This document shows, piece after piece, positions 3,530-16,021 of a stretch of 31,811 nucleotides of DNA; positions within the stretch are counted from its first letter, which is position 1; the number at the start of each line of letters is the position of its first letter. Position numbers and translations under genes: made by a program. Source of the stretch: Candidatus Saccharimonadota bacterium. Lineage in GTDB: Bacteria > Patescibacteriota > Saccharimonadia > Saccharimonadales > JAQGGX01. The notes below the pieces were generated by a model. That model was not told the DNA's origin and made no database searches. It was given only the letters and a program-made list of their open reading frames with translations. The stretch covers positions 1 to 31,811 of the forward strand of contig JAQGGX010000058.1 in NCBI GenBank assembly GCA_028289075.1, in the 5' to 3' direction.

Positions 3530-3976
3530 CTAGTCGACGATCATAAGGAAACCATCGTGGATATTTTTGAACAGATCACGTTTCTCACCTGGCTTGATCT
3601 CTCTCGTGCAAAGCATATTATCAATCTCTTCGAGTTTGAGCACCGTGCCAATTTCATCATCGTATGCAACGTAGGAATTGCTGAGCCAATACTTACGCAC
3701 TGGCCCTGAGCGGGACTCATACTCCTCCTGAACGTCTATGCGCACAACAACCGCATCCTCATCCCTAATTGCCGCCAAACGATCCAGTACAACCCGGCAA
3801 CACCGTTGGTCAGTTTGCTGTAATATAATTCGTTCGAACTCACCCGTACTAATAATAAGGCTCAGTTCCGGACTTGAGACCATAAGCCGTTCAGCTAATC
3901 GGAACTGTTGATAGGCTACTCCAAATATTGATTGTGCAGCTCCCCTCCTTTCTTGTTGGCTTGAAGACTGACTCAT
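3530..3976 (-). CDS. Hypothetical protein
   Basis: 148 aa ORF with ATGA overlap to the upstream gene; no recognisable motif. Confidence 0.7.
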   Translation of the reverse strand: MSQSSSQQERRGAAQSIFGVAYQQFRLAERLMVSSPELSLIISTGEFERIILQQTDQRCCRVVLDRLAAIRDEDAVVVRIDVQEEYESRSGPVRKYWLSNSYVAYDDEIGTVLKLEEIDNMLCTREIKPGEKRDLFKNIHDGFLMIVD

Positions 3977-4209
3977 GTTGAAACCTCACGCGGCCTGCCT
4001 AAGATCGCCATAGGCCGTTCACGCCAGGTGTCTTTCTCTAAATACCTGAGCGTATAGAGGTGGAGCAGTATCCAGCCTTCTTCGAGCAAGCTGTTAACTT
4101 CTTCTCTTCCATGCGCTTCAAGGTTGCGACCCGTCAGCTCGGTGATTCCAAGATCCCACAGCTCTTTACTGCGGGTAACTGCTTTGGTGCCTGGAGTATT
4201 CTGTACCAT
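3973..4209 (-). CDS. Hypothetical protein (78 aa)
   Basis: ORF track 3973..4227; start reassigned to ATG 4209, which has GGAGG 5 nt upstream. Confidence 0.7.
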   Translation of the reverse strand: MVQNTPGTKAVTRSKELWDLGITELTGRNLEAHGREEVNSLLEEGWILLHLYTLRYLEKDTWRERPMAILGRPREVST

Positions 4210-4267
4210 ATTGACCTCCACTAGCACCCCACTATAAAAGGTTTAAGTTGCAAAAATAGCGAATATC

Positions 4268-5191
4268 TTACAGCCAGCGTTTGCGACGGAAAACTAGGAC
4301 CGTACTCGCACAGGCGAGCACAATAAATGCTATAACAAACCAGAAGGCATACGGATGTTCCTGCAATGGTAGTGGTACATTCATACCGAAGATTCCCGAT
4401 ACAATTGTCGGAATCATCAAAAAGATAGAGATCGAGGTCAGGCGACGAAAGGTCTTGTTCAGTTCGTTGGTCGCAATCGCATCATATGCCTGGCGGATGT
4501 TTACGATTGTTTTGACACGTGACTTCGCAAGCTCAATCAACTCTGCAGTACCAAGGCTTAAGTCCTCGATGAGATCTTTGTCCTGCTCATACAAGCGGAT
4601 AAATTTGCCGTTTAGCAAGTTACGAAGCATTGAAGCCTGTGGTTGCAGGGCGCTCAGCATTTCATTCAGGTCATCTTCCAGATCTACAAACTGCAGCAAC
4701 TGTTCATTGCTGATGTTTTTGCCGCGCAGCTGTGTACGAGCACGAAGCACTTGCCGGGTCGTTACGTTCAGGTAGCGAGTATACGTCTCATTCACTTCTT
4801 CAATGATTTGCAGTAATGTCTTTGTCTTTTGCGTAGTGATAACCGGGCGCTGACCGTTTTGCAAGCGCTTCAGTATATTTGTCTGAGCCCGCACAATCGT
4901 AATCAAGCAATCGTCACGATATATGATCAACAATGGTTCAGTGGCGTTTACGCCATTTTCGGGATAACAGTATCTTGTAAACACATACACCGTGTCATCC
5001 TCTTGCTCGATACGAGGCGCCTCATACGGGTCGACGGCGTCATTCAACAGGTCGATATCGAGGTTAAAATCCTCACTTAACCGCTGCAGTTCTTCTGCGT
5101 TGGGTGCTTCGACATGGATCCATGCTCCAGTACGCAGGCTCTCAATAGTCTTCAGCTCCGGCGCACGTGCCGTGCTGTAATAAATATTCAT
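4268..5191 (-). CDS. corA: CorA family Mg2+/Co2+ transporter
   Basis: 307 aa; signature GIFGMNV after the first of two C-terminal TM helices; WIHVEAP near the N-terminus. Confidence 0.95.
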   Translation of the reverse strand: MNIYYSTARAPELKTIESLRTGAWIHVEAPNAEELQRLSEDFNLDIDLLNDAVDPYEAPRIEQEDDTVYVFTRYCYPENGVNATEPLLIIYRDDCLITIVRAQTNILKRLQNGQRPVITTQKTKTLLQIIEEVNETYTRYLNVTTRQVLRARTQLRGKNISNEQLLQFVDLEDDLNEMLSALQPQASMLRNLLNGKFIRLYEQDKDLIEDLSLGTAELIELAKSRVKTIVNIRQAYDAIATNELNKTFRRLTSISIFLMIPTIVSGIFGMNVPLPLQEHPYAFWFVIAFIVLACASTVLVFRRKRWL

Positions 5192-7255: not shown

Positions 7256-7294
7256 CTCCCCTGTTTTATAGCGTGCACACAGTACGCATAATAA

Positions 7295-7359
7295 TGGGGA
7301 TTGGCCAAGCCGCACCGACACCGGATTCGGTCCTGCCATTCGAGGGTTCGAATCCCTCA
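7295..7359 (+). pseudogene. Degenerate tRNA-Gln copy lacking the 3' acceptor strand
   Basis: First 15 nt (TGGGGATTGGCCAAG) identical to the intact tRNA; anticodon loop TTC-GGT has a 1-nt deletion; intact T-arm GAGGG-TTCGAAT-CCCTC; no ATCCCCAGCCA end. Confidence 0.8.
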
Positions 7360-7375
7360 AACAAATTAACAATAT

Positions 7376-7398
7376 GATTCAGAATATTTCTCTTGGCT
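7376..7398 (-). repeat. Inverted copy (anti-repeat) of the tRNA 3'-end/trailer repeat
   Basis: GATTCAGAATATTTCTCTTGGCT; its reverse complement matches 7472-7494 (AGCCAAGAGAAATGTCCTGAATC) at 21/23. Confidence 0.9.
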
Positions 7399-7402
7399 TT
7401 AG

Positions 7403-7476
7403 TGGGGATTGGCCAAGTGGTAAGGCACCGGGTTCTGGTCCCGATATCGGGGGTTCGAATCCCTCATCCCCAGCCA
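7403..7476 (+). tRNA. tRNA-Gln (anticodon CUG)
   Basis: 74-nt cloverleaf: acceptor TGGGGAT/ATCCCCA, D-arm GCC-AAGTGGTAA-GGC, anticodon loop TT-CTG-GT, T-arm GGGGG-TTCGAAT-CCCTC, G discriminator, encoded CCA. Confidence 0.96.
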
Positions 7477-7508
7477 AGAGAAATGTCCTGAATCCCGGCG
7501 TCCCCAGC
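7469..7508 (+). repeat. Direct repeat R1 (40 bp; tRNA 3' end plus trailer)
   Basis: CCCAGCCAAGAGAAATGTCCTGAATCCCGGCGTCCCCAGC, identical to 8567-8606. Confidence 0.97.
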
Positions 7509-7555
7509 TAAATCAAAACCCGGTCGAAAAATCGGATTTACTGTTATCCCCATTT

Positions 7556-8503
7556 TTATTGGATACGTAAATCTGCGACGAGTCTGGCATATTGCGTAAA
7601 AGCTGGTTTTGGCAGGTACTCGTCATCCATGATGCCGAAATGATAGAATATGCCCTCCTTGTCACTGTCGGTATCGCGGAGTTGAAAGAGCTCATAATGC
7701 GTAATATTGTAAGTGTCTTTAACTTCATACACGCTCATGATGATACGCTCGAGCGTAACCGCTTGTTGTTCTAGCGGGCGCTGGTCACCGGTCGGCCAGC
7801 CGTTTTCGGTAATTCGGATTGGCACGTGACCGCCGATACCCGCTCCTGCCAGATCACGCTCGCGAAGATCATTGATAATGGACTGAACTGCAGGTGCAAT
7901 TTGCTCTGTCGGAATTGGCCGGAATACGTCCGGGAAGAAGTCGAATCCAACATAATCTAACGCTTTGAGGAATTCTGGCGTGGAAAGCTCGCTAAGCTTT
8001 TGCCAATAAGTGTCTGGACCAAATGTTGGCGTAACATTGAAGCCAACTGCAACCTTACCCCAGCCGGCAGCTTGCAGTGCTGTTTTGGCTGCTATAACGC
8101 CTTCGGTGAGTGCACGCATGGACGAGGGATAGTCACCGTCCATACCATGGCCAACCACATTAGTTTCTTCGGTAATTTGTAGTGCACCGAGATGTGCACC
8201 GTATTCGTCTACGACTTTTTCTATAAAACGCTGCCAGTCTTCCATGTCGCCGGTATCAGTTTGGTAACATATGACCAGGTCAAGTTTGCGACCATGTATC
8301 GCATACTGTTCTGGACGAAACGGTGTGTGGTTGGCGGATTTACTATTGCCCTTATAGTGCAGGTAAGCTCGTGCCAACAGTGTCGCCGCGTCACCCTGCA
8401 GTGTGTCGAGTGCGCTATTAATTGCACTTGGATTATCGGGCTTGCCTTGCAGTAGCCCTTCATCTGAACCAGTTGCGCTGCCTACGTATATGCCAAATTC
8501 CAT
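7556..8503 (-). CDS. Putative clan GH-A-like TIM-barrel glycoside hydrolase
   Basis: 315 aa; ITENGWPT resembles a nucleophile motif, LQITEETN a possible acid/base region, DYVGFDFFP; AGGAGG SD upstream. Confidence 0.6.
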   Translation of the reverse strand: MEFGIYVGSATGSDEGLLQGKPDNPSAINSALDTLQGDAATLLARAYLHYKGNSKSANHTPFRPEQYAIHGRKLDLVICYQTDTGDMEDWQRFIEKVVDEYGAHLGALQITEETNVVGHGMDGDYPSSMRALTEGVIAAKTALQAAGWGKVAVGFNVTPTFGPDTYWQKLSELSTPEFLKALDYVGFDFFPDVFRPIPTEQIAPAVQSIINDLRERDLAGAGIGGHVPIRITENGWPTGDQRPLEQQAVTLERIIMSVYEVKDTYNITHYELFQLRDTDSDKEGIFYHFGIMDDEYLPKPAFTQYARLVADLRIQ

Positions 8504-8566
8504 ACATCCTCCTATGCCTTACTCCTATCGCTATTGTACTCACAAGTTTGGAATATGGGCTACTTA

Positions 8567-8606
8567 CCCAGCCAAGAGAAATGTCCTGAATCCCGGCGTC
8601 CCCAGC
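8567..8606 (+). repeat. Direct repeat R2 (40 bp)
   Basis: Identical to 7469-7508. Confidence 0.97.
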
Positions 8607-8610
8607 CACG

Positions 8611-8645
8611 AAAAGAGCATCCTGCCAAAGGTAGGGTGCTTTTTT
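8611..8645. terminator. Bidirectional terminator-like hairpin at the left end of unit 2
   Basis: AAAAGAGCATCCTGCC-AAA-GGTAGGGTGCTTTTTT, 13 nt beyond the stop of 8659..9525. Confidence 0.75.
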
Positions 8646-8658
8646 AGTTAGCTATGCA

Positions 8659-9525
8659 TTACTTCATGAACTCAGCTATGCATTCCCACAGTTTTTCTGG
8701 CTGCTCATCAGCAATAAAATGACCACTGCCCTCGATTTTCTTACCTTCAATATTTACTAGGCCAGCCCTAGTGAAGCCTGCAATATAAGGCTCAATGCTC
8801 ACCCCACTATGACTACCCCTGAGGTAAAGAACAGGAGTCTGAATAGACTGACTTGGGGCGGGCGTATTATCTTTTTTGTCTTGCGTAAAGGCACGGTACC
8901 ATTCAAAACCGGTACTGAGCGCGCTAGGCTGTGTGTATGCTTTGGCATATCGTTCACGTGATTCTGTTGTTATCAATTCAGGTTTGAGCGACATAGCGTC
9001 GAAGAAGAAATCGAAGTAATCCGCTTGTTTACCCTGTACTAATTTCTCTGGTAACTCCGGAATAGTATGAAATGCAAAGTGCCAAATATGGGGATTGCGC
9101 AACACTTCATCCCACGGGTCAATTCCAGGCACCGCGACATCTATGATAATGGCTCGTTCCAAATAATCACCGTGATTAGTAAGATATGAATAGGTAACCA
9201 TACCGCCGCAATCATGACCAACAAGGGTCACATGCTGGAGGTCCAGCGCCTGGACAACGCCGTATACATATGCAGCAATTTCCTTTTTGCTCCCAACAAG
9301 CGGCTCACAACTAGACGCGCCCATCCCTGGCATGTCTACGGACACTGCATGCACCGTCTGACCCGCGAGGATCATAACTTTTTCAAAGGCCGACCAGTCT
9401 TGTGGCCAGCCATGCAAAAAGAGTACTACAGGGTCGTTAAGCATCCCACACTCGACGACGTGAATACGCGCATCCTTGACCTCTATATATCTGTGCCGTA
9501 GTTCATGGGTACTTTGAAGTTCCAT
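8659..9525 (-). CDS. Alpha/beta hydrolase, epoxide hydrolase/haloacetate dehalogenase-like
   Basis: HGWP oxyanion motif, GHDCGG nucleophile elbow (Asp), WHFAFH, GFEWYRA, C-terminal GHF. Confidence 0.92.
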   Translation of the reverse strand: MELQSTHELRHRYIEVKDARIHVVECGMLNDPVVLFLHGWPQDWSAFEKVMILAGQTVHAVSVDMPGMGASSCEPLVGSKKEIAAYVYGVVQALDLQHVTLVGHDCGGMVTYSYLTNHGDYLERAIIIDVAVPGIDPWDEVLRNPHIWHFAFHTIPELPEKLVQGKQADYFDFFFDAMSLKPELITTESRERYAKAYTQPSALSTGFEWYRAFTQDKKDNTPAPSQSIQTPVLYLRGSHSGVSIEPYIAGFTRAGLVNIEGKKIEGSGHFIADEQPEKLWECIAEFMK

Positions 9526-9625
9526 ATCTTTTACTATACCCCCTTTCTCATCCTAATAGGTAGAGCACTATGCCCCCTCCTATCATGCCCATCACCATCG
9601 TTCAAAGCTTGGAACGTTGACTACC

Positions 9626-9649
9626 TCCCCAGCCAAGAGAAATGTCCTG
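9626..9649 (+). repeat. Direct repeat R3 (24 bp, shortened)
   Basis: TCCCCAGCCAAGAGAAATGTCCTG, identical to 7467-7490. Confidence 0.93.
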
Positions 9650-9748
9650 GCTCGCTACCCTACCGCCTCTGCAGGAGGCGGACGTACAGGAGAGCTGCTT
9701 CGCAATCTCGACACTGAGCTTCGTTCTTCCGCTGAAAGTGCGGCTTAA

Positions 9749-9937
9749 CATTCGGCTTTATCAAGCAACGCTTACTTCAATACACAGCGCACCAATGGCC
9801 CCCTCACCGCTCCCAGTACCAGTGCGTCTAGCGGTAACGGTGTCTACACCTACAGTGCGGACGCTATTTTCCCCACCAGCACTTACCAGGCAACCAACTA
9901 CTGGGTTGATCCTATATTTAACCTGACGACTCCTTGA
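9749..9937 (+). pseudogene. C-terminal remnant of a DUF4082-like domain protein
   Basis: Hand translation HSALSSNAYFNTQRTNGPLTAPSTSASSGNGVYTYSADAIFPTSTYQATNYWVDPIFNLTTP*; no start codon, in-frame TAA at 9746-9748. The GPL..GNGVY..FPT..NYWVD pattern is recognised as DUF4082. Confidence 0.75.
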
Positions 9938-9947
9938 AGTCAGATCC

Positions 9948-10709
9948 CTATTTTTTCTTGAACCTCTTTTTGATTATTCCCCACACGAAATGGGCATTGC
10001 CTCGAGCCATGAATTCTTTTTTGTTGCTGCCGATCGACTCTATCAGCCGTGAGGCTGTGAATTCGGCACTATCTGGGTCGGGCAAGAAATCTTGCCTTTG
10101 AGCTTTGGCTTCCATCTCGCGTGGATCCATCTTGAAGACATTCTTTCCAAACTGAGATGACGTGATGAATGGATAAAACGCGCTTACCTCGATATTGTCT
10201 TTGGCAAGTTCTTTGCGCATCACGAGTGTCATATGCGTAAGAGCTATCTTTGTCAGGGAGTAGGCGCCTAGGCCGGGTAAAGCCATCTTGGCTGTCGGTG
10301 TACTGACGTTCACGATCCTTCCGCCGCTCTGGGCGCGCATGATCGGTAGTACCGCTTGCACCGCGACCAGCGGGCCGACGACATGCAGGTCGAACAGGTA
10401 GCGTACTTTGTCTGCTTCTACGAGCTCGAGCGGGCTTTCATAACCCTTGCCGGCGTTATTTATGAGTATGTCGATACGGCCAAAGTGTTCGTGCACTTTC
10501 TTTACCATTGCTTGTACGGACGCGTCATCCGTCATATCGGTTGGGATTGCCACACTTCTCTCAATGCTATCTGCAACCTCGTCGAGCGTGTCGCTCCCTG
10601 GCGCGGCGATTGCCACCAACGCACCTTGTGCCGCTAGCTGTCTAGCCGCTGCGAGTCCGATACCGGATGATCCTCCGGTTATTATCACGACCTTTTCTTT
10701 AAAATTCAT
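9948..10709 (-). CDS. SDR family NAD(P)-dependent oxidoreductase
   Basis: TGGSSGIG, NNAG and catalytic YSLTK. Confidence 0.95.
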   Translation of the reverse strand: MNFKEKVVIITGGSSGIGLAAARQLAAQGALVAIAAPGSDTLDEVADSIERSVAIPTDMTDDASVQAMVKKVHEHFGRIDILINNAGKGYESPLELVEADKVRYLFDLHVVGPLVAVQAVLPIMRAQSGGRIVNVSTPTAKMALPGLGAYSLTKIALTHMTLVMRKELAKDNIEVSAFYPFITSSQFGKNVFKMDPREMEAKAQRQDFLPDPDSAEFTASRLIESIGSNKKEFMARGNAHFVWGIIKKRFKKK

Positions 10710-10757
10710 ATTGTTGCCCCTTCTTGCACGTAATGCATAACAGTGATACTCTAAATT

Positions 10758-10773
10758 TAGAACAATTGTTCTA
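10758..10773. promoter_or_regulatory. Probable TetR operator
   Basis: Perfect 16-bp palindrome TAGAACAATTGTTCTA between divergent SDR and TetR genes; TATAAT at 10785-10790. Confidence 0.75.
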
Positions 10774-10796
10774 GAACAGTCAAGTATAATTTATAT

Positions 10797-11420
10797 ATGT
10801 CCGATCACTATTTACGCACCACCCCAGTTCATAAGCGCAGTCAGGCGACAATTCAGAAAATCCTGAATACCGCTGAAGCTGCTTTTTTGGAGTTGGGTTA
10901 TGACAAAGTTACGACGCGAATCATTGCCGAAAGAGCTGGCGTGCCTACGGGTTCCCTGTATCATTTTTTCCCAAACAAAAATGCCATCCTGGATGGCCTC
11001 GCAGCTCGACACCTAGAAGCCCAAAAGGACATGCACCAAGATTTACAATCTGTTTCACCGACCACAGACCTAGAGGTGTTCATAGACCTACTAGTCGACA
11101 AGATATTGATCCATTTTGAATCACACGCACCGTTTGAGCGAATTATCAATGCACGTTCGTCTTCGTCGGAAATAGCAGAGTACGTGAAGCGTTTTAACGA
11201 GGAAGCGCTAAACAATACTATTCGGAATATGGCTGCCGCCTACCCTTCCGTATCTCCTGACGTTCTCAAAGTGCAGGCTGAAACAACTGTGGCGCTCGTG
11301 AGGAGTTTGCTAGATGTCTCTACCCGCCAATCTGACGCTGCTACTCGTGCAAAAGTCATAGAAAACATGAAGGTTGCCCTGCATGCAATATGGGAGCCAC
11401 TTATAAAGACGCTGCGATAA
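10797..11420 (+). CDS. TetR/AcrR family transcriptional regulator
   Basis: N-terminal HTH GYDKVTTRIIAERAGVPTGSLYHFFPNK. Confidence 0.95.
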   Translation: MSDHYLRTTPVHKRSQATIQKILNTAEAAFLELGYDKVTTRIIAERAGVPTGSLYHFFPNKNAILDGLAARHLEAQKDMHQDLQSVSPTTDLEVFIDLLVDKILIHFESHAPFERIINARSSSSEIAEYVKRFNEEALNNTIRNMAAAYPSVSPDVLKVQAETTVALVRSLLDVSTRQSDAATRAKVIENMKVALHAIWEPLIKTLR

Positions 11421-11446
11421 GGCTCACCGACGGTAGTCATTGTAAG

Positions 11447-11686
11447 ATGAAAAAGAAAATAATTTTCCTTGCTGGAGGTACATTTATTTACATCGTGCTC
11501 CTGTCTGTAGGTACTACGCCGCCTGCGTTTAACCGAACAACAAACTCCGGCACGGAAAATATGGGTCTAACCGGCGCCAACATCCGCTGGGGTACACTTG
11601 CCGCAGGCCAAACGGCGTTACCAGCGAGCTTTATGTCCGCGAACATCGTCTCTACGAGCAACTTGTTTATCGTTTGTGGTATGTAG
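11447..11686 (+). CDS. Small protein with N-terminal hydrophobic segment (79 aa)
   Basis: Within track ORF 11390..11686; start reassigned to ATG 11447 (MKKKIIFLAGG...); followed by a terminator-like hairpin. Confidence 0.45.
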   Translation: MKKKIIFLAGGTFIYIVLLSVGTTPPAFNRTTNSGTENMGLTGANIRWGTLAAGQTALPASFMSANIVSTSNLFIVCGM

Positions 11687-11707
11687 GGCTAAGATCTAGA
11701 GTTTATC

Positions 11708-11730
11708 ACTAACCTCTGGGTTAGTTTTAT
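11708..11730 (+). terminator. Terminator-like hairpin
   Basis: ACTAACC-TCTG-GGTTAGT followed by TTTATT. Confidence 0.55.
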
Positions 11731-11877
11731 TGTTGATCCCATGGATGTATGTCGCCTAGTGTGGTGCGAGACATATAGACTTTTATGGCTTGATTGTAGC
11801 AGAAGCGGTTACAGGGCATTTTCAGGGGCGCAAAACCCTTTTAACTGTGGTAGGCTATTATCCGTATCACCCTACGT

Positions 11878-12035
11878 TGGGGAATGGCAACTGGTAAGTC
11901 ACCGGGTTCTAGTCCCAGGATCAGGGTGAGACATGCCCGGGGCATGTCGCAAGGCGACTTTCCGATGCAAGCTATGCTTACAATCGTGAAATCGCGGGGC
12001 TGCCGGAGGTAGGTCGAATCCCTCATCCCCAGCCA
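11878..12035 (+). pseudogene. Interrupted tRNA-Gln-derived copy with CUA anticodon and ~86-nt insert in the T-arm
   Basis: 5' half TGGGGAATGGCAACTGGTAAGTCACCGGGTTCTAGTCCCAGGATCAGGGT (11878-11927) aligns to the intact tRNA; 3' half TCGAATCCCTCATCCCCAGCCA (12014-12035) is identical to 7455-7476. Confidence 0.82.
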
Positions 12036-12036
12036 A
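12014..12036 (+). repeat. att-like direct repeat of the tRNA 3' end (23 bp)
   Basis: TCGAATCCCTCATCCCCAGCCAA, identical to 7455-7477; identity begins in the T-loop. Confidence 0.95.
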
Positions 12037-12063
12037 TTCGATTTTCAACTAATCGGTTCGAAC

Positions 12064-12087
12064 GAAAGACTTCCGAAGAAGTCTTTC
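12064..12087. terminator. Terminator-like hairpin after the interrupted tRNA copy
   Basis: GAAAGACTTC-CGAA-GAAGTCTTTC, perfect 10-bp stem. Confidence 0.7.
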
Positions 12088-12166
12088 ACATTTTGCAATA
12101 GTTGTTACAAAATCTCTAAGCTCACTTCCTGAAAATTTCTAAACATATCCACTAGCCCTAACCATG

Positions 12167-12202
12167 GAAAAACCTCTAGATCTTCTGATTTAGAGGTTTT
12201 TC
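12167..12202. terminator. Bidirectional terminator-like hairpin
   Basis: GAAAAACCTCTAGATC-TTCT-GATTTAGAGGTTTTTC, 16-bp stem with one G-U pair. Confidence 0.65.
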
Positions 12203-12293
12203 TCTGTGTTGTGGGGGGTGTATTGATTTTCATAAATGTAGCATATATACTACGTAATATAGTACTTATAGTACACTGGAAGGAGGGCGACTA

Positions 12294-13196
12294 GTGGTAA
12301 GAAAACCAAACAATTTTACTATCGAAGTAAAAAATCTAGGGATGCAATACGGAGATAATCAGGTATTAAAAGACGTAAACTTTCATGCCAGGCAAGGCGA
12401 GGTGCTCGTATTGCTTGGCCCTAACGGGGCAGGTAAAACTACTACCATCGAAATTCTGGAAGGCTTTCGCAAAGCATCGACCGGATCGGTGGCCGTACTG
12501 GACATAAACCCGGAAAAAGGAGATGAGGCATGGCGGGCACGACTTGGCGTCGTTCTTCAGTCTTGGCGCGACCATTCTAAGTGGTATGTTCGCGAGTTAT
12601 TGCAGCATATTGGGAAATACTATGTGCCATACTCTACCGAGAGTCATAAACGCCCCTATGATACAGATGAAATACTCCACATCGTAGGGCTAGCTGAGCA
12701 TGCGCACAAGAAGTTGGGTGAGTTATCTGGTGGACAGCGGCGTCGTATGGATGTTGCAATCGGACTAATCGGTAATCCTGAAGTGCTATTTCTTGATGAG
12801 CCTACTGTTGGCTTTGACCCTATCGCACGCCAGGAGTTTCATGATGTTATCCATCGTCTCTCCGATCTAGAGAAAACGACAGTTCTATTAACAACACATG
12901 ACTTGCAAGAAGCAGAAAAACTTGCTGACAGAATCATCATATTGGCAGGCGGCAAAATAATTGCGAATGGTACCGCCGGAGAACTGGCGCAAGAAATTGA
13001 AGGCCGGACTGAAGTGCGTTGGCAGCAGAACGGAGAATTAATGGTCCATTCGACAAAAGATGCCACAGCGTTTACACGAGATTTGTTACGTCAACACGAA
13101 TCTGGTATTTCTGATCTGCAGATACACGGCACGACATTAGAGGAAACATACACGGGACTTATCCAGAAGTACGAAGAGAAAAAGGAGGCAAAATAA
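12294..13196 (+). CDS. ABC-2 type exporter ATP-binding protein
   Basis: Walker A GPNGAGKT, signature LSGGQRRR, Walker B LFLDEPT, H-loop TTHD; GTG start after AAGGAGG. Confidence 0.95.
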   Translation: MVRKPNNFTIEVKNLGMQYGDNQVLKDVNFHARQGEVLVLLGPNGAGKTTTIEILEGFRKASTGSVAVLDINPEKGDEAWRARLGVVLQSWRDHSKWYVRELLQHIGKYYVPYSTESHKRPYDTDEILHIVGLAEHAHKKLGELSGGQRRRMDVAIGLIGNPEVLFLDEPTVGFDPIARQEFHDVIHRLSDLEKTTVLLTTHDLQEAEKLADRIIILAGGKIIANGTAGELAQEIEGRTEVRWQQNGELMVHSTKDATAFTRDLLRQHESGISDLQIHGTTLEETYTGLIQKYEEKKEAK

Positions 13197-14041
13197 TGAA
13201 TGTTTCTTCAAATGCAGTAAAGCTTGGATTCGAACGTGGCTGGATTGATTTTAAGCGGTTCGTATCGAGTCCAGGGGATATCATACCGATTTTACTCATT
13301 GCTGCCCTATCACTTGGTTTCCTCTGGTATCAACGTGACTATCAGGTGAATGGTATCTCATTAGCTTTGGTGACACTGCCCAGTATTATCGGTATGATTG
13401 TTGCCTTTAGTGGATTTTCTACTATTTCGAGTCTGCTCACGTCCGAACAAGAAGATGGGACGCTCCTTCGAGCCAAAACAATCCCACAGGGTATTAAAGG
13501 TTACTTTATCTCTCGGCTTGTATTCGTCGCCCTAACAACAAGTATCATGTTGATAGGTATGTTGCCCGCTCTGTTCTTCGTGGACGGTGTCTCCATTGAC
13601 TTTAGTCAAGGTGTTGAGCTTGCTGGAGTACTCATTTTGGGCTTCATCGCAACGGTAACGTGGGGCGCTATTGTAGGATCACTGGTTAAAAGTGCAAAAG
13701 ATGCCAGCGCCCTTATGTTTCCTACTTTTCTCATTATAGGTATATCTGGCATTTTCTATCCTATTACTGCACTCTGGGGATGGGTGCAGGCTGTCGCGCA
13801 AATATTCCCAGTTTATTGGCTTGGCCTGGGGGCACGATCTATTATTCTTCCTGGCCAGGCAGCAGCTAACGAGATAGCTAAATCGTGGCGGACGCCAGAA
13901 ATGCTCGCTATACTTGCGATATGGGCAATTGTAGGCTTAGCCGTTGCTCCGAAGGTGCTTTCGCGGATGACTCGACGTGCCACAGGCTCTAAAATGACTG
14001 TAGATAGTGAACATGCAAAACAATACCAACCACATCAATAA
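13196..14041 (+). CDS. ABC-2 type exporter permease
   Basis: About six TM segments; EQEDGTLLR motif; SGIFYPIT; TAATG overlap with the ATPase gene. Confidence 0.92.
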   Translation: MNVSSNAVKLGFERGWIDFKRFVSSPGDIIPILLIAALSLGFLWYQRDYQVNGISLALVTLPSIIGMIVAFSGFSTISSLLTSEQEDGTLLRAKTIPQGIKGYFISRLVFVALTTSIMLIGMLPALFFVDGVSIDFSQGVELAGVLILGFIATVTWGAIVGSLVKSAKDASALMFPTFLIIGISGIFYPITALWGWVQAVAQIFPVYWLGLGARSIILPGQAAANEIAKSWRTPEMLAILAIWAIVGLAVAPKVLSRMTRRATGSKMTVDSEHAKQYQPHQ

Positions 14042-14261
14042 AAAGGACGCAGGCGGTGAAGCTGTTTATAACAGAATCAACGTTCTACGTGCTGAACGAA
14101 AGATCACTCGCAGGCAGCTTGCTGACGCACTTGGTATACACTATCAGACGGTAGGGTATCTAGAGCGTGGAGAATTCAACCCCAGCCTTCAGCTCGCACT
14201 TCGTATTGCCGAATATTTTGACGTGCCGGTTGAACGCGTATTTTCAAACGAACCTTTTTAA
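14013..14261 (+). CDS. Xre/Cro-like HTH transcriptional regulator
   Basis: NRINVLRAERKITRRQLADALGIHYQTVGYLERGEFNPSLQLALRIA; start 14013 (ATG) or 14007 (GTG). Confidence 0.92.
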   Translation: MQNNTNHINKKDAGGEAVYNRINVLRAERKITRRQLADALGIHYQTVGYLERGEFNPSLQLALRIAEYFDVPVERVFSNEPF

Positions 14262-14350
14262 AAGCTGAGATCCTTCCTTAATACAGTCAGCTTTTCACAC
14301 ACAGTCATCAGGCTAAGTGCTTAATAGTGTTCCGATTCTGGCCTGCGTGG

Positions 14351-14384
14351 CCAGCCATTACGAATTTCAACTAATCAGTTCGAA
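14351..14384 (+). repeat. Degenerate direct repeat of 12029-12062 (34 bp)
   Basis: CCAGCCATTACGAATTTCAACTAATCAGTTCGAA vs CCAGCCAATTCGATTTTCAACTAATCGGTTCGAA, 30/34 identical. Confidence 0.88.
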
Positions 14385-14957: not shown

Positions 14958-15371
14958 TTAAGCTACTAAAGGTTCTGCTTCATCGGCAGGCTTTAATATG
15001 CTGTTTACAAGCTGATCTATTTGATCATCTGATAAGTTTGCTTTCACAAGATAGTTCACAATTCCAAGATCACGTAAACCTGTTGGCGCCTCGGATTCGT
15101 TGAGGTTTGAAATAATAACAACAGGAATTTGCTTACCCCAATCACTCTTTCGCATTATGCTCAAAACTTGATCGCCAGAAATATCCGGCACCATCAGATC
15201 AAGTAGTACTAAGTCGGGCAATTCTTGTTGTATGAAGTAAAGAGCTGCTATACCATCTGTAGCTGCGAAACATGTGTAGCCAAGTAGCTCAAGACGAGTT
15301 TTATAAATGTCAGACAAGCTAGGATTGTCTTCAACGATTACTATTTTTTTGGGTGATCCAGATTGATCCAT
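14958..15371 (-). CDS. Single-domain response regulator (CheY-like receiver)
   Basis: IVIVEDN, phospho-acceptor DLVLLDLMVP, IISN, YLVK. Confidence 0.93.
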   Translation of the reverse strand: MDQSGSPKKIVIVEDNPSLSDIYKTRLELLGYTCFAATDGIAALYFIQQELPDLVLLDLMVPDISGDQVLSIMRKSDWGKQIPVVIISNLNESEAPTGLRDLGIVNYLVKANLSDDQIDQLVNSILKPADEAEPLVA

Positions 15372-15466: not shown

Positions 15467-16021
15467 ATGACATCTACCCAGTACGTTGCTTTGCTGCGCG
15501 GCATCAACGTTGGCGGCAAGAATCTTATTAAAATGACCGAGTTAAAGGCTTGTTTTGAACGGAATGGATTCGACAATGTTGCCAGCTATATCCAGAGCGG
15601 GAATATTTTGTTCGAGAGTAACGAAAAAGACATGCCCAAACTGGAGAGTCAGATTGAACAAATGCTTTCAAAAAACTTCAACTACAACGCACGTATTGTG
15701 TTGCGGTCTCACAAGCAAATGAAGTCTGTAATTGCGCAAGCACCCAGCGGATTTGGCGGCACACCTGCCGAATATCGATACGATGCGATCTTTCTCAAGG
15801 ATTTGCTCGCTTCACACGAACTAATAAAAGTGGTAAGCGCTAAAGAAGGTGTCGACCAGGTGTTTGCCGGAAATGGTGTACTGTATTTCTCCCGGCTTAT
15901 TAGTCGTGCATCACAGAGCAAATTAAGCAGAATTGTCGGCACTCCCGAATATCAACACATGACCATTCGTAACTGGAGCACGACAGTCAAGCTGCTCGCG
16001 CTCATGGAAGCACGCAATTAA
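15467..16021 (+). CDS. DUF1697 family protein
   Basis: YVALLRGINVGGKN, YIQSGN and C-terminal TIRNWSTT. Confidence 0.92.
   Translation: MTSTQYVALLRGINVGGKNLIKMTELKACFERNGFDNVASYIQSGNILFESNEKDMPKLESQIEQMLSKNFNYNARIVLRSHKQMKSVIAQAPSGFGGTPAEYRYDAIFLKDLLASHELIKVVSAKEGVDQVFAGNGVLYFSRLISRASQSKLSRIVGTPEYQHMTIRNWSTTVKLLALMEARN

What the first reader, a model, noticed from the sequence alone, without database searches (positions are those of the whole stretch)
7403..14384. Integron-like, integrase-free cassette array growing from the 3' end of tRNA-Gln
Seen: the tRNA 3' end (CCCAGCCA) plus trailer recurs as a 40-bp identical pair (7469-7508, 8567-8606) and a 24-bp copy (9626-9649). A second family follows: a 23-bp tRNA-end copy (12014-12036) and a 30/34 copy of its trailer (14351-14384). 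The first two units are 1098 and 1061 bp. Each holds one gene antisense to the tRNA, with its 5' region at the right end and a hairpin at the left. Units 3 and 4 are 2.3-2.4 kb, and unit 3 contains gene debris. The 40-bp repeat itself ends in a second tRNA-3'-end-like tract (GAATCCCGGCGTCCCCAGC[C/T]A). No recombinase is encoded in the window. Established: tyrosine integrases often target tRNA 3' ends and tandem islands occur, but these usually carry an integrase or its relic. Inference: small non-autonomous circles sharing one attP are inserted serially at the tRNA end by an enzyme acting in trans, newest next to the tRNA. That would give integron- or CRISPR-like polarity without attC sites.
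Basis: partly seen in the sequence, partly recalled or inferred. Interest (0 to 1): 0.9.

Follow-up and report, generated by a model that had tools for sequence, protein, structure and literature searches.

The report
Recombinase-free gene cassettes stacked behind tRNA-Gln
Behind a tRNA-Gln gene of an uncultured Saccharibacteria genome, four small accessory-gene units without a recombinase are each bounded by a copy of the tRNA's last bases, which looks like repeated site-specific insertion at one reusable site; this resembles known tandem islands at tRNA and tmRNA genes, but in miniature.

Summary
The tRNA-Gln(CUG) tail plus trailer occurs three times, at 7469, 8567 and 9626/9628, and nowhere else in the 921-kb assembly. 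A second tail-plus-trailer pair (12029, 14351) bounds an ABC-transporter unit.

New points:
- The 22-40-nt repeat is the native trailer of a tRNA-Gln module shared with at least three other families. In all of them it pairs with the tRNA leader.
- Units 1 and 2 also share a near-palindromic box 10-12 nt before the tail copy. The same box-tail-trailer junction lies in another family.
- 11877-12036 is a spare tRNA-Gln copy carrying a roughly 95-nt covarying three-hairpin element. That element lies beside tRNAs in 89 of 151 genomes of the order, and cargo sometimes sits between tRNA and element.
- Large serine recombinase genes whose 3' ends overlap tRNA tails are common in the order. None is in this 82%-complete genome, which has only a Xer-like enzyme.

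Best reading (0.55): an accretion array of cis-/trans-mobilisable cassettes at a self-regenerating attB. It is not an integron: there are no attC hairpins and no IntI. This scan found the same class before on other Saccharibacteria DNA.

The parts
7292..7359 (+). Decayed spare copy of tRNA-Gln upstream of the working gene. It keeps the first 15 nt, the T arm and a remnant of the 3' part of the structured insert, and it lacks the 3' acceptor strand.
   Evidence: Direct repeats D10 and D14. Alignment with the insert-bearing upstream copies in G209 and G239.
7376..7398 (+). Leader arm, 21/23 complementary to the tRNA tail plus trailer.
   Evidence: Inverted repeat I1. Duplex -32.7 kcal/mol, z -9.3, with the same helix in G239, G390 and G209. 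Fold of the whole precursor.
7403..7476 (+). tRNA-Gln(CUG), the working gene.
   Evidence: ARAGORN. Rfam tRNA model, 59.8 bits.
7469..7508 (+). Core copy 1: the last 8 nt of the tRNA, a 13-nt trailer and a second tail-like tract running from the T-loop to CCA. This is the attB-like site.
   Evidence: The same layout follows tRNA-Gln in G239, G390 and G209, and follows a tail copy downstream of the tRNA in G298.
7509..8566 (-). Unit 1 body: hairpin 7520-7535, gene 7556-8503 (315 aa, no Pfam family) and a right arm with the box at 8540-8555.
   Evidence: No homologue in 400 genomes of the order. Best hits are 58-62% identical, in unnamed metagenome contigs.
8567..8606 (+). Core copy 2, 40/40 identical to copy 1.
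8607..9625 (-). Unit 2 body: a hairpin at 8616-8640 between an A-run and a T-run (to 8645) that looks like a two-way terminator, the alpha/beta-hydrolase gene 8659-9525, and a right arm with the box at 9601-9615.
   Evidence: Best homologues are 57-58% identical.
9626..9649 (+). Core copy 3: tail plus trailer only. It then diverges into a continuation resembling the one at an orphan junction in G277.
9650..11876 (.). Unit 3: ORF 9642-9926 (no family hit; its start overlaps core copy 3), short-chain dehydrogenase 9948-10709 (-), TetR regulator 10797-11420 (+) and small ORF 11390-11686 (+).
11877..12036 (+). Spare tRNA-Gln copy. Its 5' part is 82% like the gene and its anticodon reads CTA. A roughly 95-nt three-hairpin element is inserted in the T-loop. 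The last 23 nt are identical to the tRNA.
   Evidence: Model R1 scores 115.8 bits. Covariation.
12029..12062 (+). Second core, copy 1: a 7-nt tail plus a different trailer.
   Evidence: Repeat D4.
12063..14350 (+). Unit 4: terminator 12166-12203, ABC ATPase 12294-13196, ABC-2 permease 13196-14041 and HTH_3 regulator 14007-14261.
14351..14384 (+). Second core, copy 2 (30/34 identical to copy 1).
14958..15371 (-). Response-regulator gene, the conserved right flank of the site.
   Evidence: Pfam. Homologues at about 70% identity lie 0.2-3 kb from tRNA-Gln in G001, G008 and G039.

Best explanation
The stretch 7477-14384 is an accretion array at the 3' end of tRNA-Gln(CUG).

The target site (attB) is the last 8 nt of the tRNA plus its native trailer. 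Units 1 and 2 are 1.1-kb single-gene cassettes. In circular form they would carry an attP-like site made of three parts: a near-palindromic box, 10-12 nt of spacer, and a copy of the tail plus trailer.

The cassette copy and the chromosomal site share the whole tail-plus-trailer half. Recombination there therefore leaves a complete attB next to the tRNA and an attP-like junction at the far end of the cassette. The site can be used again, and units stack.

Units 3 and 4 are older or differently bounded insertions. They lie on either side of a spare tRNA copy that carries a widespread structured element.

The enzyme acts in trans. The most likely kind is a large serine recombinase of the tRNA-tail-targeting type that is common in this order, but none is present in this assembly.

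Shown: the repeats, the shared ends, the site variability, the foreign cargo and the absence of a recombinase. Inferred: circles, order of arrival and enzyme identity.
For: - Exact tail-plus-trailer copies lie at unit borders and nowhere else in the genome.
- Units 1 and 2 carry unrelated genes but share two things: the 40-nt left end, and a right arm with a box at a fixed offset from the tail rather than from the start codon. In-register identity is 17-18 of 28, P about 1e-4.
- The same box-tail-trailer junction occurs on a G277 contig of another family that holds no tRNA.
- The core is the native trailer in G239, G390 and G209, each with a single copy within the 8-12 kb fetched. In G390 a homologue of window gene 15467-16021 lies directly behind it.
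- The response regulator lies 0.2-3 kb from tRNA-Gln in G001, G008 and G039.
- Unit 1 cargo is absent from 400 genomes of the order.
- All five large (over 500 aa) serine recombinase genes examined end inside or next to the 3' end of an opposite-strand tRNA: G067, G142, G145, G147 and G150.
- The G067 element is 8.2 kb and bounded by tail copies, with a similar box before the distal tail.
- The same layout is documented for Dehalococcoides ssrA islands. It includes a conserved motif upstream of each direct repeat and 15 islands without an integration module (PMC3146451).
Against: - There is no direct sign of movement.
- The genome holds no serine recombinase, only a Xer-like enzyme. It is 82% complete.
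- The box is short. Its match to the G067 element is one case among four distinct regex hits in 1.1 Mb scanned on both strands.
- The closest homologues of the cargo genes are not in tRNA-linked contexts.
- Units 3 and 4 do not share the ends of units 1 and 2.
Confidence: 0.55

Rival explanations
1. The units are eroded remains of full-size integrative elements that once carried their own recombinase. They integrated in tandem at tRNA-Gln and then lost everything but a gene or two by deletion. The small units never moved on their own.
For: - Autonomous 8-kb elements with a serine recombinase exist at tRNA tails in the order.
- Unit 3 holds an unassignable ORF and mixed gene orientations.
- Tycheposon and ssrA islands show such decay.
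Against: - Units 1 and 2 are compact. Each has one intact gene, and conserved ends are kept on both sides.
- No recombinase fragment is detectable in the window.
- Independent deletions would not leave a box at the same offset in two units and again in G277.
Confidence: 0.2
2. No dedicated recombinase is involved. The conserved tRNA, trailer and structured spare copy serve as homology arms. DNA taken up by natural transformation is swapped in by general recombination, and the internal tail copies are by-products of such exchanges or of unequal crossing-over.
For: - The tRNA, the trailer and the roughly 95-nt element are conserved at 75-100% across families. They could serve as arms.
- Cargo lies between a tRNA and its spare copy in several loci without any recombinase: C42, G067 and G119.
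- The structured element is abundant in genomes with no serine recombinase, for example G056, G075 and G077.
Against: - The identity at internal borders is only 22-40 nt, and it ends sharply at the tail.
- The right arms are conserved as a distinct motif that is not tRNA-derived.
- General recombination does not explain why cargo borders fall exactly at tail copies.
Confidence: 0.15
3. Assembly artefact. Different strains carry different single cassettes behind tRNA-Gln, and the assembler threaded them in series through the shared 40-mer.
For: - The genome is a 98-contig metagenome bin.
- Copies of the related structured element often lie at contig ends in relatives, which shows that such regions do break assemblies.
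Against: - Each unit's right arm is joined to the core in the assembled sequence, so every unit is flanked by the core on both sides in real reads.
- The three junctions differ beyond the repeat.
- A 40-nt repeat is shorter than the usual largest k-mer.
- The reads could not be inspected.
Confidence: 0.05

Closest known systems
Dehalococcoides ssrA-specific genomic islands (McMurdie et al. 2011, PMC3146451)
   Same: - Tandem islands lie behind one small RNA gene, each bounded by a direct repeat of its 3' end.
- A conserved short motif sits just upstream of each repeat and does not align with the gene.
- A roughly 540-aa serine recombinase is encoded on the reverse strand next to attL.
- 15 islands lack the integration module and are read as cis-mobilisable.
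   Different: - Here the units are 1-2.3 kb with one to three genes, and none carries a recombinase.
- The target is a tRNA tail plus a trailer that also pairs with the leader.
- A structured spare tRNA copy sits inside the array.
- No cognate recombinase has been found in the genome.
Cis-mobilisable elements and accretion at ICE/IME att sites (reviewed in PMC5704250; concept recalled from my own knowledge of the Streptococcus thermophilus work)
   Same: Units flanked by att sites but lacking recombination genes sit in tandem at the 3' end of a conserved gene. They are thought to be moved by a neighbour's or a trans-acting recombinase.
   Different: - Known examples are several kb to tens of kb and depend on conjugative partners.
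- No conjugation genes, and no partner element, are seen here.
Tycheposons of Prochlorococcus (10.1101/2020.12.28.424599)
   Same: - Repeated integration occurs at the same tRNA, with new arrivals pushing older ones inward.
- Partial tRNAs are scattered through the island.
- The host has a streamlined genome.
   Different: Tycheposons carry their own tyrosine or serine recombinase and replication genes and are much larger. The units here carry neither.
Integrons and integrase-less attC clusters (CALINs)
   Same: Arrays of mostly single-gene cassettes with conserved junction modules and a reusable proximal site.
   Different: - There is no IntI. The only tyrosine recombinase scores 136 bits against the integron-integrase model, whose cut-off is 265.
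- The junctions do not fold as attC hairpins.
- The genes read towards the anchor rather than away from a common promoter.
- The anchor is a tRNA tail.
tRNA-gene integration sublocations of integrases (Williams 2002, Nucleic Acids Research; recalled from my own knowledge, not read here)
   Same: Crossover at the extreme 3' end or in the T-loop of a tRNA, with the element restoring the 3' part of the gene.
   Different: - That framework describes elements that encode an integrase.
- It does not include a covarying structured insert in a spare tRNA copy, or 1-kb cassettes.

Membership tests
Integron | An integron integrase (IntI) gene next to the array | tested here: not met
   The window holds no PF00589 hit. 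The genome's single tyrosine recombinase (C10) is Xer-like, scoring 136 bits on TIGR02249 against a cut-off of 265.
Integron | attC sites: imperfect palindromes that fold as single-strand hairpins at each cassette end | tested here: not met
   Junctions 8504-8610 and 9560-9660, folded on both strands as DNA, gave z between -0.8 and +0.9 against shuffles.
Integron | Cassettes oriented to be read from a common promoter at the proximal end | tested here: not met
   The genes of units 1 and 2 are antisense to the tRNA and read towards it.
Tandem t(m)RNA-end islands with cis-mobilisable units (accretion arrays) | Units bounded by direct repeats of the 3' end of the target RNA gene | tested here: met
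   Five tail copies lie at unit borders, and the core 22-mer is unique to this locus.
Tandem t(m)RNA-end islands with cis-mobilisable units (accretion arrays) | Units lack their own recombinase | tested here: met
Tandem t(m)RNA-end islands with cis-mobilisable units (accretion arrays) | A cognate autonomous element with a recombinase uses the same att site | tested here: inconclusive
   Serine-recombinase elements at other tRNA tails are common in the order, and one has a similar box. None was found at tRNA-Gln with this core, and none in this genome.
Tandem t(m)RNA-end islands with cis-mobilisable units (accretion arrays) | Excision or mobilisation observed (circle junctions, empty sites within a population) | not testable with these tools
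No same-family genome is held.
Tycheposon | The element carries its own recombinase plus replication genes | tested here: not met
   The cargo is hydrolases, a dehydrogenase, regulators and an ABC transporter.
REP / MITE | Repeat dispersed genome-wide, unrelated to one locus | tested here: not met
   There are three copies, all at this locus.

The most novel reading that the evidence does not exclude
Saccharibacteria have a dedicated gene-capture system anchored on tRNA genes.
- The tail-plus-trailer acts as a self-regenerating landing site for 1-kb promoter-bearing cassettes.
- The covarying roughly 95-nt element in spare tRNA copies is a working part of it. It could be a structured RNA or single-strand DNA cofactor, or a site that marks or guides insertion.
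- The enzyme is not a classical island integrase. It could be the single Xer-like recombinase or an unrecognised protein. This would explain arrays and elements in genomes without any serine recombinase.
Probability: 0.15. Interest if true: 0.85.

Novelty: new variant of a known kind. Interest (0 to 1): 0.55.

Why it matters
Saccharibacteria have genomes under 1 Mb, live on host bacteria and carry few classical mobile elements. How they gain accessory genes is therefore an open question. A reusable tRNA-tail site that accepts 1-kb cassettes would be a simple route for gene gain and strain variation. It would also give a natural landing pad for genetic work in these organisms. The locus further ties two features that this scan reported separately: cassette arrays at tRNA tails, and the structured element in spare tRNA copies. 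Here, cargo sits between the working tRNA and the spare copy.

Tried and rejected
- A metagenome scan for the 19-nt core gave three contigs with no tRNA and no similarity to the window, so these are chance hits.
- A genome-contig scan with a 14-base degenerate pattern of the structured element was swamped by chance matches. It only showed that Saccharibacteria are among the hits.
- A viral-contig scan found no true copy of the element in the 80 contigs tested with the model, out of 120 returned.
- The contexts of the closest homologues of unit 1 and unit 2 cargo are not tRNA-linked.
- Rfam has no family for the element or the junctions.
- The attC-like fold was rejected.
- The REP/MITE reading was rejected.
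- Reverse transcriptase, Y1 HUH transposase and serine recombinase were not found in the genome.
- I first thought 7292-7359 might be an empty site for the structured element. Alignment showed it is a copy with an internal deletion.
- I considered that the right arms are decayed tRNA 3' parts. In-register identity to the tRNA is only 8-9 of 28.
- Three literature searches for Saccharibacteria or Patescibacteria tRNA-linked cassettes found no description.


Full report
**What is there**

The window is the whole of contig C95 of a 921-kb, 98-contig, 82%-complete genome. Its nearest held relatives share only the order. Records found with a motif of the structured element, and earlier notes of this scan, place that element in Saccharibacteria.

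tRNA-Gln(CUG) lies at 7403-7476. Its last 8 nt plus trailer form a 40-nt stretch, 7469-7508, that recurs exactly at 8567-8606. It recurs again over 22-24 nt at 9626-9649, giving spacings of 1098 and 1061 nt. With up to three mismatches allowed, the 22-mer occurs only at these three places in the genome.

A second pair (12029-12062 and 14351-14384, 30/34) starts with the 7-nt tail and continues with a different trailer.

The units hold the following:

| Unit | Content |
|---|---|
| 1 | 315-aa protein with no Pfam family |
| 2 | alpha/beta hydrolase |
| 3 | short-chain dehydrogenase, TetR regulator and two small ORFs |
| 4 | ABC-2 transporter with an HTH regulator |

Units 1 and 2 each have a hairpin at the tRNA-proximal end, and their genes read towards the tRNA.

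**The repeat is the tRNA's own trailer**

A BLAST search of junction 8490-8650 over 400 genomes of the order found the same tail-trailer-second-tail layout directly behind tRNA-Gln(CUG) in G239, G390 and G209. In G298 it lies behind a tail copy.

In the window and in those three genomes the trailer pairs with the tRNA leader over 22-24 bp. The duplex energies are -25 to -33 kcal/mol, with z of -5.7 or lower. Eleven other tRNA-Gln(CUG) loci show no such helix. The fold of the whole precursor extends the acceptor stem.

The core is therefore the native flank of one tRNA-Gln module, that is the target site. It is not a sequence invented by the inserted units. G239, G390 and G209 each carry a single copy within the 8-12 kb fetched. 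In G390 a homologue of window gene 15467-16021 lies directly behind it.

The response regulator at 14958-15371 has homologues of about 70% identity. They lie 0.2 kb (G001, next to tRNA-Gln(UUG)), 2 kb (G008) and 2.9 kb (G039) from a tRNA-Gln, against 7.5 kb here. The space behind tRNA-Gln is thus variable while its outer flanks are conserved.

**Shared cassette ends**

Beyond the identical 40-mer, the right arms of units 1 and 2 carry a near-palindromic box of the form TCAnAAGYTTGGAAYR, at 8540-8555 and 9601-9615. It lies 10-12 nt before the tail copy.

The same box, tail and trailer occur at a junction in G277, which belongs to another family, on a 6.6-kb contig with no tRNA. In-register identity over the last 28 nt is 17-18, which random 28-mers from the window reach with a frequency of about 1e-4. 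Identity to the tRNA itself is 8-9 of 28.

The box keeps its distance from the tail, not from the start codons. The start codons lie about 35 nt from the box in unit 1 and about 75 nt in unit 2. This fits a recombination site better than a promoter. The junctions do not fold as attC hairpins.

**The spare tRNA copy inside the array**

The stretch 11877-12036 has three parts. The first is a tRNA-Gln 5' part that is 82% like the gene, has anticodon CTA and has a broken D stem. The second is a roughly 95-nt insert between T-loop positions 54 and 55. The third is 23 nt identical to the tRNA end.

Sixteen copies from different tRNAs align into three hairpins closed by the T stem. Of the base-pair cells, 97% are paired, 24 of 38 pairs show compensatory changes, and 0 of 500 shuffles reach this. 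Slid controls give 30-48% paired. Three pairs are conserved G-U pairs, so the fold is specific to the tRNA-sense strand.

A covariance model finds two copies in this genome, and copies in 89 of 151 genomes of the order, with up to about 20 per genome. Rfam has no match.

In a sample of 46 copies, 41 had a tRNA in the fetched stretch. Of these, 40 lie on the same strand as the nearest tRNA, usually 60-76 nt downstream or 23-41 nt upstream. When a copy is downstream, its tail usually matches that tRNA.

A few loci have genes between the tRNA and its spare copy:

| Locus | Distance from tRNA to spare copy | Cargo |
|---|---|---|
| This window | 4.4 kb | units 1-3 |
| Contig C42 of this genome | 0.6 kb | NUDIX gene, followed by a short extra tail copy |
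| G067 | 3.2 kb | PAP2-kinase-LPG synthase fusion and a HAD hydrolase |
| G119 | 2.1 kb | not annotated |

The fragment at 7292-7359 is a further, internally deleted copy. It corresponds to intact upstream copies in G209 and G239.

Earlier agents of this scan described the same element and similar arrays on other Saccharibacteria DNA. I rebuilt the evidence independently here.

**Candidate enzyme**

The assembly holds one tyrosine recombinase. It is Xer-like and lies on contig C10. The assembly holds no resolvase-domain protein, reverse transcriptase or Y1 transposase.

Across the order, serine recombinases occur in 104 of 151 genomes. All five large ones that I examined end inside or beside the 3' end of an opposite-strand tRNA. 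In G067 an 8.2-kb element of this kind runs from tRNA-Leu(GAG) to a short tail copy, which is followed by a terminator and the spare copy with its own tail. A box similar to the one in this window precedes that short tail.

This gives a plausible trans-acting family. The link to the units of this window rests on a short motif only. Genomes with many spare-copy elements and no serine recombinase (G056, G075, G077) show that the element itself does not depend on one.

**Mechanism proposed**

The attB site is the tRNA tail plus trailer. The cassette attP is the box, a spacer, and the tail plus trailer. The two share their right half, so integration recreates attB at the tRNA and leaves an attP-like junction distally. 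That is exactly the pattern tRNA-core-U1-arm-core-U2-arm-core.

This reading is an inference. Circles, order of arrival and the enzyme are untested. The rivals are eroded full-size elements, exchange by general recombination using the conserved arms, and an assembly artefact.

**Comparison with what is known**

The closest described system is the set of ssrA islands of Dehalococcoides. These are tandem units bounded by a 20-bp repeat of the RNA gene's end. A conserved 15-bp motif lies upstream of each repeat. A roughly 540-aa serine recombinase is encoded on the reverse strand next to attL. Fifteen islands lack the integration module and are read as cis-mobilisable (PMC3146451).

Tycheposons show the same stacking at tRNAs. 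Integron membership fails on IntI, attC and gene orientation.

What differs here from all of these is the scale: 1-kb single-gene units, none with a recombinase. The target site also doubles as a leader-trailer helix, and the array is tied to the structured spare tRNA copies. I found no description of this in the held literature.

**Verdict**

This is a new variant of a known kind, and the scan has already seen it repeatedly in other genomes.

Noticed in passing
window 7376-7398 with 7472-7494; also L325, L326, L331: A 22-24-bp leader-trailer helix encloses tRNA-Gln(CUG) and buries its 3' end. It is conserved in four genomes of four families and absent at eleven other tRNA-Gln loci. It could be a processing signal, or it could be part of the recombination site.
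   Followed up: partly
window 11877-12036: The spare tRNA-Gln copy reads anticodon CTA (amber). Its D stem is broken, and most family members keep only the T stem, so a working suppressor tRNA seems unlikely. This was not tested.
   Followed up: partly
G000 contig C42 (L021 261-1110): This is the second such locus in the same genome. Its order is tRNA-Lys(CTT), terminator, NUDIX gene, a 10-16-nt extra tail copy, terminator, then the spare copy with the structured element.
   Followed up: partly
window 8620-8636; L327, L330: Terminator hairpins that follow tRNA tails in several genomes have the same stem top and loop (CTGCC-AAAG-GTAGG) as the last hairpin of the structured element.
   Followed up: no
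L319 (G004:C16 1-8300): A 4.1-kb unit is tandemly duplicated. It contains a large serine recombinase gene, and the gene's 3' end abuts the tail of a structured spare copy.
   Followed up: no
L186 (G039) 3693-5000; L189 (G035) 4304-4560; L336 (G298) 96-290: Other tRNA-Gln loci carry one to three extra tail copies spaced 170-550 nt apart, each preceded by a different structured module. More than one family of tail-linked modules therefore exists.
   Followed up: no
relatives, one search list: Many copies of the structured element lie within 30-250 nt of a contig end. This suggests strain variation or repeat collapse at these sites in metagenome assemblies.
   Followed up: no
G000 contig C10 15346-16269 (-): The only site-specific recombinase in the assembly is a 307-aa Xer-like protein, 0.9 kb from tRNA-Arg(CCT). 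No tail repeat of that tRNA was found on the contig.
   Followed up: partly
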